Source: Escherichia coli (GTDB lineage: Bacteria > Pseudomonadota > Gammaproteobacteria > Enterobacterales > Enterobacteriaceae). Taken from it: 64,000 bases of DNA. A program made the translations under genes and the position numbers. Within the stretch, counting starts at the first letter, position 1, and each line of letters begins with the position of its first letter. The DNA lies in the NCBI RefSeq assembly GCF_013315695.1, contig NZ_CP054353.1; one strand, given 5' to 3'. The notes beneath the pieces are model-generated. The model worked only from the letters and a program-made list of their open reading frames with translations. It had not been told where the DNA came from and did not search any database. Shown one piece after another: positions 26,570 to 31,722 of this stretch.

Positions 26570-27589
26570 TTACCTGAAAGCAACAGTAGCCATAGCTAAC
26601 GTCGTGTCGAGCATTCGGTTAGCAAAGCCCCATTCGTTATCGCACCAGACCAACGTTTTGATCAGGTGTGCGCCACTGACCCGGGTTTGGGTGCCATCGA
26701 CAATGGCACTGTGCGGATCGTGGTTAAAATCTACAGAGACCAACGGCAATTCCGTATAGTCAACTATACCATGAAATGCACCTTGTGCTGCTTTTTGCAG
26801 CAACAGGTTGACTTCATTGGCTTTTACAGGTTTCTTCACCGTCACGCTTAAATCGATTGCCGTCACATTTATGGTTGGCACACGTACCGCAATCGCTTCA
26901 AAGCGATCGTTAAATTGCGGAAAAAATCGTGTGATACCGGCGGCCAGTTTAGTATCGACCGGAATGATCGACTGGCTGGCTGCCCGGGTGCGACGCAGGT
27001 CAGGATGGTATGCATCAATAACCTGTTGATCGTGCATGGCGGAGTGAATTGTGGTCACAGTGCCAGACTCAATACCGTACGCATCATCTAACAATTTGAT
27101 GACGGGAATTATGCAATTCGTGGTACAGGAAGCGTTAGAAACGATGCGGTGTTCCGCACGAAGTTGATCCTGATTGACGCCGTAAACAACGGTCGCGTCG
27201 AGATCGTTACTGCCAGGATGTGAAAAGAGCACTTTTTTGGCCCCGGCGGCAATATGCGCTTCGCCATGCTCGCGGGAGCCATATACGCCGGTGCAGTCGA
27301 GGACTACATCAACGCCAAGTTCACGCCAGGGGAGCGATTGTAGTGAACGTTCATGCAATACACGGATGGCGTCATCACCAACAAAAAGTTGATCGCGTTC
27401 CTGTCGTACTTCCCATGCAAAACGGCCATGGCTGGTGTCATATTTCAACAAATGCGCCATGCCCGCAGCATCCGCCAGTTCGTTGATTGCCACCACGGTA
27501 ATTTCCGCCCGGCGTCCGGATTCATACAAAGCACGAACCACATTACGCCCGATGCGACCGAAGCCATTTATCGCTACGCGTACGGTCAT
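26570..27589 (-). CDS. epd: D-erythrose-4-phosphate dehydrogenase (339 aa)
   Basis: Internal start [43 protein letters not shown]... Confidence 0.95.
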
Positions 27590-27816
27590 AGATCTCCTGC
27601 AAGGTTTTCCCTGAGCAAATTTGCCAGACAGAGTAATCCAGCAAATCGTCCGGGGAAACCTTACCTGTCGCAAACTGCGACTGATTGGTTAATTGTCGAA
27701 CATTTAATCGACTGAAACGCTTCAGCTAGGATAAGCGAAACGTGGAATAAAAGGAATGATTGTCCAGTCAAAGAAGACAATTATCTGACTTACGTCACGT
27801 TTTCAGCCCCGCCCCT

Positions 27817-27832
27817 GTGGAATTTATTCCAC
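27817..27832. promoter_or_regulatory. Near-perfect 16-bp palindrome gtggaatttattccac (candidate operator) in the epd / island intergenic region
   Basis: Inverted repeat read directly; a related half-site cgtggaataaaa occurs about 75 bp upstream. Confidence 0.3.
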
Positions 27833-27960
27833 TTTGCAGAATCACGAATAAGCGTAGCAAAATCTTTTCGTTGTGCCGTCACAAACCCTGACTTATATCA
27901 GAATATGACTGATGCAGCGTCGATATTATCCGCAATACGTCCGAGTTTCGGAGTACTCCA

Positions 27961-28392
27961 ATGATGACATTGCCCTACCCATATTCTTCCTCCGCACGTT
28001 TTTACGCGCTGCGCCTGCTCCCCGGGCAGGAAGTTCTCTCCCAATTACGCGCCTTCGCGCAGCAACAACAACTTCACGCCGCGTGGATTGCAGGTTGTAC
28101 CGGCAGTCTGACTGACGTCGCCTTACACTATGCCGGGCAAGAAAACACGACCCTACTAAGCGGTAAGTTCGAAGTCATCGCATTGAACGGCACGCTGGAA
28201 CAGAGTGGTGAACATCTTCATCTCTGCGTTTCCGATCCACACGGCACGATGCTTGGCGGTCATATGATGCCCGGCTGTACCGTGCGGACCACGCTTGAAC
28301 TGGTGATCGGCTGCCTTGAGGAACTGGCGTTTAGCCGCCAGCCTTGCGCGCTTTCTGGTTACGACGAGTTGCATATTTCCCCCGTTAACTAA
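27961..28392 (+). CDS. Small DUF296 / PCC-domain-like protein (143 aa), first gene of accessory operon
   Basis: Product MMTLPYPYSSSARFYALRLLPGQEVL...HLHLCVSDPHGTMLGGHMMPGCTV...; RBS ggag 7 nt upstream; family assignment from recalled features only. Confidence 0.6.
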   Translation: MMTLPYPYSSSARFYALRLLPGQEVLSQLRAFAQQQQLHAAWIAGCTGSLTDVALHYAGQENTTLLSGKFEVIALNGTLEQSGEHLHLCVSDPHGTMLGGHMMPGCTVRTTLELVIGCLEELAFSRQPCALSGYDELHISPVN

Positions 28393-28414
28393 CTATTTTC
28401 AGAGAGGTTTTCTT

Positions 28415-28993
28415 ATGGCGCGTCGCCACTTTTCCAGTCAGGCGCTGGTGTTGATCGTTATATCTATCGCCATCAATATGATCGGCGGGCAACTGGCCAG
28501 CATGGTCAAATTACCTATATTTCTCGACTCCGTCGGCACACTTATTAGCGCAGTACTGCTTGGTCCGGTGATCGGGATGCTGACCGGCTTACTGACCAAT
28601 TTACTCTGGGGATTGCTGACCGACCCGATCGCCGCCGCATTTGCGCCCGTCGCGATGGTCATCGGCCTGGTCACCGGTTGGCTGGCGCGAGCGGGTTGGT
28701 TACGCACCCTGCCAAAAGTCGTTGTTAGCGGCGTGATTATTACGCTTGCGGTAACGGTCGTCGCTGTACCGCTGCGTACTGCGCTGTTCGGCGGTGTCAC
28801 CGGTAGCGGAGCCGATTTGTTCGTTGCCTGGATGCACTCTATGGGGCAAAACCTGGTGGAGTCGGTGGCGATTACGGTGATAGGCGCGAACCTGGTCGAT
28901 AAAATTCTCACGGCGGTGATTGTCTGGCTTTTACTGCGCCAGTTGCCGATTCGCACCACACGACATTTCCCGGCAATGGCTGCCGTGCGCTAA
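28415..28993 (+). CDS. ECF-type transporter substrate-capture (S) component, small multi-helix membrane protein (192 aa)
   Basis: Highly hydrophobic product MARRHFSSQALVLIVISIAINMIGGQLASMVKLPIFLDSVGTLISAVLLGP...; stop directly abuts the T-component start. Confidence 0.6.
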   Translation: MARRHFSSQALVLIVISIAINMIGGQLASMVKLPIFLDSVGTLISAVLLGPVIGMLTGLLTNLLWGLLTDPIAAAFAPVAMVIGLVTGWLARAGWLRTLPKVVVSGVIITLAVTVVAVPLRTALFGGVTGSGADLFVAWMHSMGQNLVESVAITVIGANLVDKILTAVIVWLLLRQLPIRTTRHFPAMAAVR

Positions 28994-29701
28994 ATGCATC
29001 CGTTTACATCCTTAACGCTGTGGACGCTGGCGGCCTGCACCACGCTTATCCTGCCCACACAGACAATACTGCCAGTCTATAGCGCGGCGACCTTTTTCTG
29101 CCTTATTGCGCTGAAGGCCACGCGGCGGCGGGCAAAATATGTTGTCTGGCTGATGTTCTCGCTGGGGGCTGGACTGTGGCTGGTACACGGTGGCTGGCTG
29201 ACAGAATGGCTAAGCGGCACGCCACGCTCGCCAGAACGGTGGACGCATGCTATTACGCTCTGGTTGCGGATTCTGGCGATTGTTTCAACCTCGCAGTTGT
29301 GGATGCAATTCGTCCCCGTGCAACGTTTTATCCGCGCTTTGTTTGCTTCTCGCCTGCCGCCGGGCGTCGCTTATCTGTTCGCCGGGCCGTTGTTGGTCGT
29401 TGAGCAGTTAAAACGGCAATTAGCGATTATTCATGAAGCGCAGCGCGCCCGCGGCGTACCGCTGGATGAGGGCTGGTATCAGCGTTTACGTGCGATGCCC
29501 GCGCTAATTATTCCGCTAACACACAATGCGCTAAACGATCTGGCTATCCGTGGTGCGGCGTTGGACATGCGGGCATTTCGGATCCACAACCGGCGCACTA
29601 CGTTATGGGCACCGCCTGACAGTAACCTGGAAAAAGTGGCACGTTACGCCATGATCTTGCTGATGCTGGCAGAATTCGGAGCGTGGATATGGTTACGTTA
29701 G
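28994..29701 (+). CDS. ECF transporter transmembrane (T) component, EcfT/CbiQ-like (235 aa)
   Basis: Membrane protein with Arg-containing coupling motifs (EAQRARGV, AIRGAALDMRAF); start codon immediately follows the upstream TAA. Confidence 0.65.
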   Translation: MHPFTSLTLWTLAACTTLILPTQTILPVYSAATFFCLIALKATRRRAKYVVWLMFSLGAGLWLVHGGWLTEWLSGTPRSPERWTHAITLWLRILAIVSTSQLWMQFVPVQRFIRALFASRLPPGVAYLFAGPLLVVEQLKRQLAIIHEAQRARGVPLDEGWYQRLRAMPALIIPLTHNALNDLAIRGAALDMRAFRIHNRRTTLWAPPDSNLEKVARYAMILLMLAEFGAWIWLR

Positions 29702-30366
29702 AACAGTTTAGCTATTGCCCGACACACTCAACGCATCCTCCGTTCTGTTATGACTTTCACTATGTCAAACCGGGGATAGTCGCCATCTTTGGTGACAACG
29801 GCAGTGGCAAAAGTACGCTGGCGCAACTGATGGCAGGCTGGTATCCGGACTTTCTGCCAGGAGAGATAACCGGCACGGGGACGCTTCTCGGTACGCCCAT
29901 TGGGCATATCCCGCTTAATGAACAATCCGCCACCATCCAGCTCGTTCAGCAATCGCCCTATTTGCAGCTCTCCGGCTGTACCTTTAGCGTGGAAGAAGAA
30001 GTTGCCTTTGGGCCAGAAAATCTGTGTCTTGCTGAAGAGGAGATTATGGCGCGGATTGATGCCGCCCTGACTCTGACCGAGTGCCAGCCGTTGCGCCATC
30101 GTCACCCGGCAACACTCTCCGGTGGAGAGACACAGCGTGTGGTCATCGCCTGCGCCATCGCGATGCAGCCAAAGCTCTTAATTCTTGATGAAGCCTTTAG
30201 CCGCCTGACGCCGCAGGCCTGCGAAATGCTGTTGCAGCGCTTACAACACTGGGCGCTTGAACGTGGTTCGCTGATTATTCTTTTTGAACGTCATCGTACA
30301 CCTTTCCTGAACTACTGCCAGCAAGCGTGGCAATTGCAAAACGGAGCGCTCCAGCCACTATGTTAA
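29683..30366 (+). CDS. ABC ATPase, EcfA-like (227 aa)
   Basis: Walker A GDNGSGKST, signature LSGGETQRV, Walker B LLILDEA. Confidence 0.85.
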   Translation: MDMVTLEQFSYCPTHSTHPPFCYDFHYVKPGIVAIFGDNGSGKSTLAQLMAGWYPDFLPGEITGTGTLLGTPIGHIPLNEQSATIQLVQQSPYLQLSGCTFSVEEEVAFGPENLCLAEEEIMARIDAALTLTECQPLRHRHPATLSGGETQRVVIACAIAMQPKLLILDEAFSRLTPQACEMLLQRLQHWALERGSLIILFERHRTPFLNYCQQAWQLQNGALQPLC

Positions 30367-31037
30367 CGTTAAATCAGATAACTTATCGCTGGCCTGACGC
30401 GGCAACGGATTGTCTTTGCGACATTTCTCTGCAACTCAAACAAGGTGAATGGTTGGCGCTGACCGGCGACAATGGCGCGGGAAAATCGACGCTGTTACGA
30501 GTAATGGCAGGTCTTCTTACGCCCACAGCCGGTACGGTTATGCTGCAACAACAGGCGATGAAAAACCTGAAAAACCGCCAGCGCGCGGCAAAGATTGGCG
30601 TACTGTTTCAGGAAGCGGAAAACCAGCTTTTTCACAGCACCGTCGCTGACGAGATCGCATTTGGTTTGAAACTGCAAAAATGCCCGGCGGATGAAATCAC
30701 TCAACGTACCAATGCTGCCCTGCAATGCTGTCAGTTAGCAGACACTGCCAGCGCGCATCCGCTGGATCTGCATAGTGCGCAGCGACGGATGGTCGCCGTC
30801 GCCTGCCTGGAAGCACTCTCTCCGCCGCTATTGCTGCTGGACGAGCCGAGTCGGGATTTTGACGAAAATTGGATGAGCGTGTTTGAAAGTTGGCTGGAAA
30901 AGTGCCGCCAGCGAGGCACGAGCGTCGTAGCAATCAGTCATGACGCCGCATTTACCCGGCGTCATTTCTCTCGTGTGGTGCGACTGGAAGATGGTGTAAT
31001 CAGGAACGTTAATCCATCAGACGATATTCACCCGTAG
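30360..31037 (+). CDS. Second ABC ATPase, EcfA-prime-like, with degenerate signature motif (225 aa)
   Basis: Walker A GDNGAGKST, Walker B LLLLDEP, H-loop SHD; LSGGQ replaced by LHSAQ; start overlaps upstream stop as ATGTTAA. Confidence 0.8.
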   Translation: MLTLNQITYRWPDAATDCLCDISLQLKQGEWLALTGDNGAGKSTLLRVMAGLLTPTAGTVMLQQQAMKNLKNRQRAAKIGVLFQEAENQLFHSTVADEIAFGLKLQKCPADEITQRTNAALQCCQLADTASAHPLDLHSAQRRMVAVACLEALSPPLLLLDEPSRDFDENWMSVFESWLEKCRQRGTSVVAISHDAAFTRRHFSRVVRLEDGVIRNVNPSDDIHP

Positions 31038-31722
31038 CGGTCATCATTAAGGTCAAATTTGCAGGCAGACTCTCTTCCAGCACCCGGCGAACATTCGGCC
31101 CGTCGGTACGGTCATAAAAGGCTTCTGCGTCTGCCAGCGATAACCCTCCCGCCAGCTTGCGCCCCACCAGACGCTCCCGCAACGCAGATGCGGGAGCTTT
31201 GATAAAGATCGAGAAATCACAAAATTGCGCAAGCTGGCGCCACTTCTCGTCGTCCAGCAACAACCAGTTTCCTTCGACGATGACGAGTGGTGCGGTAACG
31301 TGCAACGCATCTTCAACAGGATCATGCTTTTGTCGATCGTACTGCGGCCACGTACAATCCCCTTCCACCACCTGGCGCAGATTTTCCGCCAGTTTCGCAA
31401 CGTCAAATGTCTCTGGTGCGCCTTTGAAGGGGCGCAATTGATGCGCGTCCAGCCAGCTATTGTAATGGTGAAAACCATCCATCGGGAGCGTCTGAATAGC
31501 GGGCAGCTCCGGGTCTTGTTGCGCGAGATATTCCCAGAAGGTGGTTAGGGTAGATTTACCCGTCCCCGGCGGAGCGCAAAGAAAAACCACCGTACGCCGC
31601 TGCGGATTTACCGTCTGTAAGGCCGCCAGCATACGCAGCAACGGTTTATGCACGCGTTCTATCTCTTCATCATGGTACTGTGCCTGTATCTTCAGCCCAT
31701 TCACCGTTAATTCAATTTTCAC
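31009..31722 (-). CDS. yggC: P-loop nucleoside/nucleotide kinase family protein YggC (237 aa)
   Basis: Product with P-loop CAPPGTGKSTL; position between epd and yggD. Confidence 0.9.
   Translation of the reverse strand: MKIELTVNGLKIQAQYHDEEIERVHKPLLRMLAALQTVNPQRRTVVFLCAPPGTGKSTLTTFWEYLAQQDPELPAIQTLPMDGFHHYNSWLDAHQLRPFKGAPETFDVAKLAENLRQVVEGDCTWPQYDRQKHDPVEDALHVTAPLVIVEGNWLLLDDEKWRQLAQFCDFSIFIKAPASALRERLVGRKLAGGLSLADAEAFYDRTDGPNVRRVLEESLPANLTLMMTATGEYRLMD

What the first reader, a model, noticed from the sequence alone, without database searches (positions are those of the whole stretch)
27817..27832. Near-perfect 16-bp palindrome gtggaatttattccac upstream of the DUF296/ECF operon
The palindrome is a candidate operator in the intergenic region shared by epd (minus strand) and the accessory operon (plus strand). 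A related half-site gtggaat lies about 75 bp away at 27743-27749. It could control either the island or epd.
Basis: seen in the sequence. Interest (0 to 1): 0.35.

Follow-up and report, generated by a model that had tools for sequence, protein, structure and literature searches.

The report
Conserved dyad upstream of epd promoter
The 16-bp palindrome is real, and it looks like a conserved protein-binding site of the glycolytic epd-pgk-fbaA promoter region rather than a switch specific to the neighbouring DUF296/ECF island; the protein that binds it is unknown and laboratory strain K-12 carries a broken copy.

Summary
GTGGAAT-TT-ATTCCAC is at 27817-27832 as reported: 7-bp arms and a 2-bp spacer. 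On its own it is not beyond chance (P about 0.14 for such a repeat in the shuffled 371-bp spacer). Comparative data make it credible. The core TGGAATAAAT is invariant next to epd in more than 12 genera. The same dyad recurs upstream of epd in genera that lack the island: Franconibacter ATGGAATTTATTCCAT and Cronobacter GTGGAATTTATTCCAA. It always lies a fixed 33 or 22 bp (three or two helical turns) from the class I CRP box. So the element belongs to the epd upstream region, at -103.5 from the mapped epd start. The "accessory operon" is O-island 119 (lmiA/z4267-z4271). Relative to its published start site (27871), the palindrome covers -54 to -39, between the published PhoP footprint and the -35 hexamer. 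One bound dimer could therefore affect both promoters. The regulator is unidentified. The motif resembles IclR/AllR boxes (TGGAA...TTCCA), but its spacer is 1 bp shorter. In many genera only one arm is conserved. K-12 lacks the island and has an insertion in the dyad. Verdict: a plausible new operator-like site of an ordinary kind, of modest interest.

The parts
27817..27832 (.). The palindrome GTGGAAT-TT-ATTCCAC. Its centre at 27824.5 is -103.5 from the epd start site and -46.5 from the lmiA start site.
   Evidence: Sequence. The exact 32-mer around it is present in 3021 of 3329 island-bearing complete E. coli genomes.
27822..27831 (-). Deeply conserved core TGGAATAAAT (read on the epd-sense strand), the better-conserved half of the dyad.
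   Evidence: Columns 27823-27831 are invariant or nearly invariant in 21 sequences. TTATTCC is kept in more distant genera and in island-less genera.
27800..27816 (.). Spacer between the CRP box and the dyad. Its sequence varies between genera but its length is constant.
   Evidence: The CRP-centre to dyad-centre distance is 33 bp in about 30 loci (32 or 34 in a few), although the columns are unalignable in sequence.
27784..27799 (-). Class I CRP box of epd (TCTGA-cttacg-TCACG on the + strand), centre -70.5.
   Evidence: TGTGA-N6-TCAGA sits at a fixed 72.5 bp from the Cra box in nearly all of the 51 loci anchored by the script; one or two anchors were wrong or degenerate (Siccibacter L092, Erwinia L090). 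The CRP class I arrangement is described in PMC5888115.
27789..27807 (+). Published PhoP DNase I footprint CTTACGTCACGTTTTCAGC, at -82 to -64 of lmiA.
   Evidence: PMC7667037. The coordinates fit a start site at 27871.
27712..27726 (.). Cra operator CTGAAACGCTTCAGC, overlapping the epd start site (27721).
   Evidence: Sequence. Invariant in the alignments. Cra covers the -10 box and the start site according to PMC5888115.
27728..27757 (-). epd core promoter: -10 TATCCT at 27728-27733 and the invariant ATTCCTTTTATTCC block at 27744-27757.
   Evidence: The promoter sequence, and a start site 132 nt from the ATG, come from PMC2759082. The ATG is at 27589.
27834..27871 (+). Published lmiA (z4267) promoter: -35 TTGCAG at 27834-27839, -10 TAGCAAAAT at 27855-27863, start site T at 27871.
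   Evidence: PMC7667037. This block is conserved in group 1 genera.

Best explanation
The palindrome is the Escherichia form of an old, conserved binding site for a dimeric DNA-binding regulator that has not yet been identified. The site belongs to the upstream control region of the epd-pgk-fbaA promoter. It sits three helical turns (33 bp) upstream of the class I CRP box, at -103.5, which is a position on the same DNA face as CRP. From there a bound protein could help or hinder CRP-dependent activation. In strains carrying O-island 119, the same site lies at -54 to -39 of the divergent lmiA promoter, wedged between the PhoP site and the -35 hexamer. The same bound protein would then also be placed to interfere with, or assist, RNA polymerase at that promoter. 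Shown here: the sequence, its conservation, the spacing constraint, independence from the island, and the positions relative to the published start sites. Inferred: that a protein binds, that it is a dimer, and the direction of its effect.
For: (1) Columns 27823-27831 are invariant across 21 sequences from 8 genera, while the neighbouring spacer columns are unalignable. TTATTCC persists in Atlantibacter, Trabulsiella, Pseudescherichia, Phytobacter and Superficieibacter. (2) The motif recurs upstream of epd in genera with other upstream neighbours and no island: Franconibacter ATGGAATTTATTCCAT, Cronobacter GTGGAATTTATTCCAA, Buttiauxella GTTGCATTTATTCCAT, Cedecea and Dryocola GTTTCATTTATTCCAY, and Siccibacter ATTATTCCAG. 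(3) TGGAATNNATTCCA occurs 7 times in the 97 fetched loci, always upstream of epd. About 0.04 hits are expected by chance from my own estimate of roughly 0.7 Mb searched; the tool gave no expectation. (4) The dyad centre is 33 bp from the CRP centre in about 30 loci and 22 bp in the island-less clade. That is a difference of one helical turn, with the spacer varying in sequence but not in length. (5) Which arm is better conserved differs between the two clades. This fits a symmetric site and not a directional promoter element. (6) Perfect dyads occur in Escherichia, Kluyvera georgiana and Cronobacter/Franconibacter. One-mismatch dyads occur in Salmonella, E. albertii and K. grimontii. (7) The positions -103.5 (epd) and -46.5 (lmiA) follow from the published start sites.
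Against: Taken alone the palindrome is not statistically unusual. In most island-bearing genera only one arm (TGGAATAAAT) is conserved, and the other keeps little beyond A/T. No known E. coli regulator motif fits it. The published DNA pull-down on an lmiA promoter fragment reported only PhoP, though the extent of that fragment is unknown. ChIP-exo and gSELEX work on epd was done in K-12, where the dyad is disrupted, so it says little either way. No regulon-wide enrichment could be tested.
Confidence: 0.42

Rival explanations
1. It is an operator specific to the island: a repressor or activator site of the lmiA/OI-119 promoter, possibly for LmiA itself. It would act at -46.5 by contact with, or occlusion of, RNA polymerase next to the -35 hexamer.
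For: The palindrome spans -54 to -39 of the mapped lmiA start site and abuts the -35 TTGCAG. Its right arm is continuous with the conserved lmiA core-promoter block. LmiA is reported to bind AT-rich DNA.
Against: The same motif lies upstream of epd in genera that have no island at that locus. K-12-type strains without the island keep the core. Buttiauxella lmiA-type loci that are not next to epd lack it, yet keep the other leader elements. The LmiA footprint motif TTAAAGTCGTTTGTTAA is unlike it.
Confidence: 0.18
2. The functional unit is an asymmetric A/T-rich 10-mer (TGGAATAAAT), and the dyad symmetry in E. coli is incidental. The 10-mer might be a docking site for the RNA polymerase alpha C-terminal domain, a nucleation site for H-NS or another nucleoid protein, or a bend element.
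For: Only one arm is deeply conserved. ATAAATT matches the 3' part of the H-NS high-affinity motif TCGATAAATT (recalled from memory). The K-12 epd/yggC spacer is flagged HNS in the RpoD gSELEX table. The chance level for the palindrome alone is high.
Against: Perfect or near-perfect dyads recur in several separate lineages. The conserved G/C positions (GG and CC) argue for base-specific recognition. The conserved 10-mer has opposite orientation in the two clades, while the dyad centre stays on the same helical face. The match to the UP-element consensus is poor (my own comparison).
Confidence: 0.25
3. It is a chance palindrome in sequence that is conserved for other reasons, with no function of its own.
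For: P is about 0.14 for such a repeat in the shuffled spacer, and the window holds 7 other or similar 7-2-7 repeats. The divergent promoters constrain much of this spacer anyway.
Against: The motif is conserved while its flanks are not. It reappears at a different but in-phase position in island-less genera. Nowhere else in the 97 loci does the 12-base pattern occur.
Confidence: 0.12

Closest known systems
IclR/AllR-type A/T-rich palindromic operators (IclR TGGAAATNATTTCCA; AllR KTTGGAAWAWTWTTCCAAC)
   Same: Both have TGGAA and TTCCA arms around an A/T-rich centre. Natural IclR-family sites often have one strong arm and one degenerate arm. From memory (Yamamoto and Ishihama 2003), IclR at aceBAK uses an upstream box near -100 plus a promoter-proximal box, which resembles the layout here.
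   Different: The published motifs have five bases between TGGAA and TTCCA (15 bp, odd symmetry). Here there are four (TGGAA-TTTA-TTCCA, 14 bp). No binding data exist for this site.
LacI/GalR-family operators (for example gal OE GTGTAAACGATTCCAC, recalled from memory)
   Same: Both are 16-bp dyads with TG at -7/-6 and AA at -4/-3 from the centre. The right arm ATTCCAC is identical to the right arm of OE. Cra, a member of this family, already controls epd.
   Different: The central CpG typical of this family is TT here. The Cra operator of epd is a separate site at 27712-27726. Published Cra ChIP-exo describes only the site over the start site.
Tandem or upstream activator sites at class I CRP promoters (-92.5/-103.5 positions)
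   Same: The centre is at -103.5 in E. coli and -92.5 in island-less genera. That is exactly 3 or 2 helical turns upstream of CRP at -70.5.
   Different: The sequence is not a CRP site. The best register, TGTGG-N6-TTCCA, matches 7 of 10 bases, and that left half is not conserved.

Membership tests
IclR/AllR operator | Inverted TGGAA / TTCCA arms with an A/T-rich centre | tested here: met
   TGGAA at 27818-27822 and TTCCA at 27827-27831, with centre TTTA. The motifs are listed in PMC8222616 Table 1.
IclR/AllR operator | Five bases between TGGAA and TTCCA (15-bp palindrome) | tested here: not met
   There are four bases here. The same 4-base spacing is seen in Kluyvera, Cronobacter and Franconibacter.
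IclR/AllR operator | Bound by IclR or AllR | not testable with these tools
   Needs EMSA, ChIP or footprinting.
LacI/GalR-family operator | A 14-16 bp dyad of the form TGnAAn-CG-nTTnCA with a central CpG | tested here: not met
   The outer positions fit, but the centre is TT. The consensus was recalled from memory, not taken from a tool.
CRP site | TGTGA-N6-TCACA | tested here: not met
   In the register of the dyad centre, GTGGA-N6-TCCAC matches 4 of 10 bases. Shifted by one base it matches 7 of 10, but that left half varies between genera.
PhoP box | (T/G)GTTTA-N5-(T/G)GTTTA, and PhoP protection | tested here: not met
   There is no GTTTA repeat. The published PhoP footprint is at 27789-27807 and ends 10 bp before the palindrome.
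LmiA binding site | Similarity to the footprinted TTAAAGTCGTTTGTTAA | tested here: not met
   No resemblance. Binding itself was not tested.
Intrinsic terminator / RNA hairpin | A stem with a loop of at least 3 nt, followed by a T run | tested here: not met
   A 2-nt spacer cannot form a loop. The terminator scan found nothing here, and there was no Rfam match.

The most novel reading that the evidence does not exclude
A previously unrecognised transcription factor input into the central glycolytic and PLP-pathway operon epd-pgk-fbaA is conserved across Enterobacteriaceae. It acts through a TGGAAT-NN-ATTCCA dyad phased with the CRP site. It has been overlooked because K-12 carries a disrupted copy. 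In strains with O-island 119, the same site couples the virulence regulator gene lmiA to that input.
Probability: 0.3. Interest if true: 0.5.

Novelty: new member of a known kind. Interest (0 to 1): 0.3.

Why it matters
epd-pgk-fbaA is a textbook Cra/CRP-controlled operon, and lmiA is a published PhoP-dependent virulence regulator of EHEC. A third, shared regulatory site between their divergent promoters would add an input to both. It would also give a concrete reason why regulation studied in K-12, which has a broken dyad and no island, may not carry over to pathogenic and commensal E. coli, Salmonella or Cronobacter. If no protein binds, the finding is just a conserved piece of promoter architecture.

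Tried and rejected
Terminator or RNA element: rejected.

Repeats flanking the island, as a signature of insertion or deletion: there is no copy of the motif at the right end of the island.

Second CRP site, PhoP box, LmiA motif, UP element, Fis, IHF, DnaA box, ARG box, RcsAB box, CytR octamers, NarL 7-2-7 and sigma-54: all were compared by eye with remembered or published consensus sequences, and none fits. CytR's GTTGCATT appears only in Buttiauxella.

Upstream promoter reading (extended -10 TGnAATAAA): rejected because the conserved 10-mer points away from epd in genera where no gene lies in that direction.

My first idea was that the operon's only promoter is a class II CRP/FNR-type promoter (box at 27888-27901, -10 at 27924-27929). 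I had to revise this after finding the published start site at 27871. The box now lies in the leader.

Searches for other regulators at the epd/yggC spacer gave only FlhDC and RpoD/H-NS gSELEX entries for K-12. The second LmiA paper has nothing on the promoter.

One script pass was off by one base and had some wrong anchors. I rely instead.

Full report
**Observation.** The window is E. coli chromosome, 100% identical over the query to strain ECCNB12-2. At 27817-27832 the + strand reads GTGGAATTTATTCCAC: 7-bp arms GTGGAAT/ATTCCAC around TT.

By itself the palindrome is unremarkable. The window has 7 perfect 7-2-7 inverted repeats against 4.7 +/- 1.8 in shuffles. In 14% of shuffles of the 371-bp intergenic region, some 7-bp-arm repeat with a 0-6 bp spacer appears.

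**Surroundings, from sequence and literature.**
- epd is on the minus strand, with its ATG at 27589.
- Its start site is 132 nt upstream, at 27721. The published promoter sequence ACATTCCTTTTATTCCACGTTTCGCTTATCCTAGCTGAA (PMC2759082) matches 27721-27759 on the minus strand.
- The Cra operator CTGAAACGCTTCAGC (27712-27726) covers the start site, and a class I CRP box (27784-27799) is centred at -70.5. This agrees with PMC5888115.
- On the plus strand, the DUF296/PCC gene (27961-28392) is followed by the S, T, A and A' components of an ECF transporter.
- This five-gene block is O-island 119 of EHEC O157:H7, and the first gene is lmiA/z4267 (PMC7667037).
- That paper maps the lmiA start site to a T 90 nt upstream of the ATG (27871). 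It gives -35 TTGCAG (27834-27839), -10 TAGCAAAAT (27855-27863) and a PhoP DNase I footprint CTTACGTCACGTTTTCAGC (27789-27807). Its -82 to -64 numbering fits exactly.
- The palindrome therefore spans -54 to -39 of lmiA (centre -46.5) and -96 to -111 of epd (centre -103.5). The paper does not mention it.

**Distribution within E. coli.** The island-type spacer is in 3329 of 5426 complete genomes, and the rest are K-12-like. The exact 32-mer around the palindrome is in 3021 genomes, including O157:H7. All K-12-type spacers examined are one 284-bp allele. On the epd-sense strand it reads CTGGAATAAA-GC-TTCCCAC. The core is kept, but a 2-3 bp insertion breaks the dyad.

**Phylogenetic footprint with the island present.** I fetched 80 loci encoding LmiA orthologues.
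- In 21 sequences from Escherichia, Citrobacter, the Klebsiella oxytoca group, Silvania, Kluyvera, Superficieibacter and one unnamed Enterobacteriaceae isolate, columns 27823-27831 (TTTATTCCA) are invariant or nearly so. The left arm varies: GCTAAAT, GTCCGTT, GCGGGTT and others.
- More distant genera (Atlantibacter, Trabulsiella, Pseudescherichia, Phytobacter, Enterobacter) keep only TTATTCC.
- Buttiauxella lmiA-type loci that are not next to epd lack the motif, yet they keep other leader elements.

**Phylogenetic footprint without the island.** I fetched epd loci from genera where the upstream neighbour is tktA, a yggC-like gene or a divergent ADP-ribosylglycohydrolase gene.
- The motif is there as well: Franconibacter ATGGAATTTATTCCAT (perfect 7-2-7), Cronobacter GTGGAATTTATTCCAA, Buttiauxella GTTGCATTTATTCCAT, Cedecea and Dryocola GTTTCATTTATTCCAY, and Siccibacter ATTATTCCAG.
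- Across 51 loci the CRP box is at a fixed distance from the Cra box in nearly all; the Siccibacter anchor was wrong and the Erwinia box is degenerate.
- The dyad centre is 33 bp from the CRP centre in the island-bearing clade (plus K-12 and Salmonella) and 22 bp in the island-less clade. That is a shift of one helical turn.
- The intervening spacer varies in sequence but not in length.
- The better-conserved arm is the CRP-distal one in the first clade and the CRP-proximal one in the second.
- The 12-base pattern TGGAATNNATTCCA occurs in 7 of 97 fetched loci, always upstream of epd.

**Interpretation.** These results move the element from "operator of the island" to "old component of the epd upstream region". 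The following features are what a symmetric protein-binding site with one strong and one weak half looks like:
- conservation amid diverged flanks;
- constant, helically phased spacing to the CRP box;
- recurrence of full dyads in separate lineages;
- the flip of the better-conserved arm between clades.

They argue against a directional promoter element. Positions -103.5 and -92.5 are on the same face as a class I activator at -70.5, so a bound protein could modulate CRP-dependent activation. In island-bearing strains the same site sits between the PhoP footprint and the -35 of lmiA. Occupancy there should also affect that promoter. All of this mechanism is inference; no binding data exist.

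**Identity of the regulator.**
- The closest published motifs are IclR (TGGAAATNATTTCCA) and AllR (KTTGGAAWAWTWTTCCAAC) (PMC8222616). They share the arms, but their spacer is one base longer, so I do not file the site there.
- The 16-bp geometry and the ATTCCAC arm resemble GalR-type operators, but the central CpG is missing.
- It is not a CRP, PhoP or LmiA site.
- K-12 gSELEX data list FlhDC and RNA polymerase/H-NS signals in the epd-yggC spacer. Their resolution is low, and K-12 has the broken dyad.
- The pull-down in PMC7667037 reported only PhoP, which is mild evidence against an abundant specific binder under those conditions.

**Rivals.** Three alternatives remain:
- an island-specific operator, favoured by the -46.5 position but contradicted by the island-less genera;
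- an asymmetric A/T-rich element (alpha-CTD, H-NS or bend) with incidental symmetry, favoured by the one-armed conservation;
- chance.

I put the dyad-operator reading at about 0.4.

**Novelty and value.** It is a cis-regulatory dyad of an ordinary kind with no assigned regulator, and the papers I could read do not describe it. It is modestly interesting because it touches a textbook operon and a virulence regulator, and because K-12 is not representative at this locus.

Noticed in passing
window 27888-27901 and 27924-27929: CTGACTTATATCAG is a TGAT-N6-ATCA dyad. Its arms are conserved and its centre varies in all Enterobacteriaceae lmiA-type loci, including Buttiauxella loci that are not next to epd. 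It lies a fixed 29.5 bp before a conserved TATTAT, which is class II CRP/FNR-type geometry. It also lies at +18 to +31 of the published lmiA start site, so it is either a second promoter or a roadblock operator.
   Followed up: partly
window 27940-27952: A conserved TCCGA-GTT-TCGGA hairpin lies in the lmiA leader and overlaps the Shine-Dalgarno GGAG (27950-27953). Two Superficieibacter loci carry an A-U to G-C compensatory change. It may control translation or mRNA stability.
   Followed up: partly
window 27784-27807: The published PhoP footprint and 'PhoP box' of lmiA (three mismatches to consensus) overlap the epd class I CRP box. That box is invariant even in genera without lmiA at this locus. 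CRP and PhoP may compete or cooperate here.
   Followed up: no
L002 5246-5315 (K-12) versus window 27800-31100: K-12-type E. coli lack O-island 119 and have an insertion in the dyad. They carry a second, inverted copy, TTTATTCCAG ... CTGGAATAAA (10-bp arms, 35 bp apart), just downstream of the yggC stop. The last ~60 residues of YggC differ between the two haplotypes (86% identity overall).
   Followed up: partly
window 27961-31037; loci L005-L042, L095, L097: The 'O-island' lies next to epd, in the same order, in at least 12 genera, including Salmonella (PDB 2HX0/2NMU is its LmiA orthologue). It therefore looks ancestral and lost in the K-12 lineage rather than recently acquired. The S component is only a sub-threshold match to the CD3073 ECF family (133 versus 180 bits).
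   Followed up: partly
window 31009-31037: The last ECF ATPase gene (30360-31037, +) and yggC (31009-31722, -) converge and overlap by 29 bp.
   Followed up: no
window 27729-27737 and 27846-27854: GGATAAGCG and GAATAAGCG form an 8-of-9 direct repeat. Each copy overlaps the -10 region of one of the two divergent promoters (epd and lmiA).
   Followed up: no
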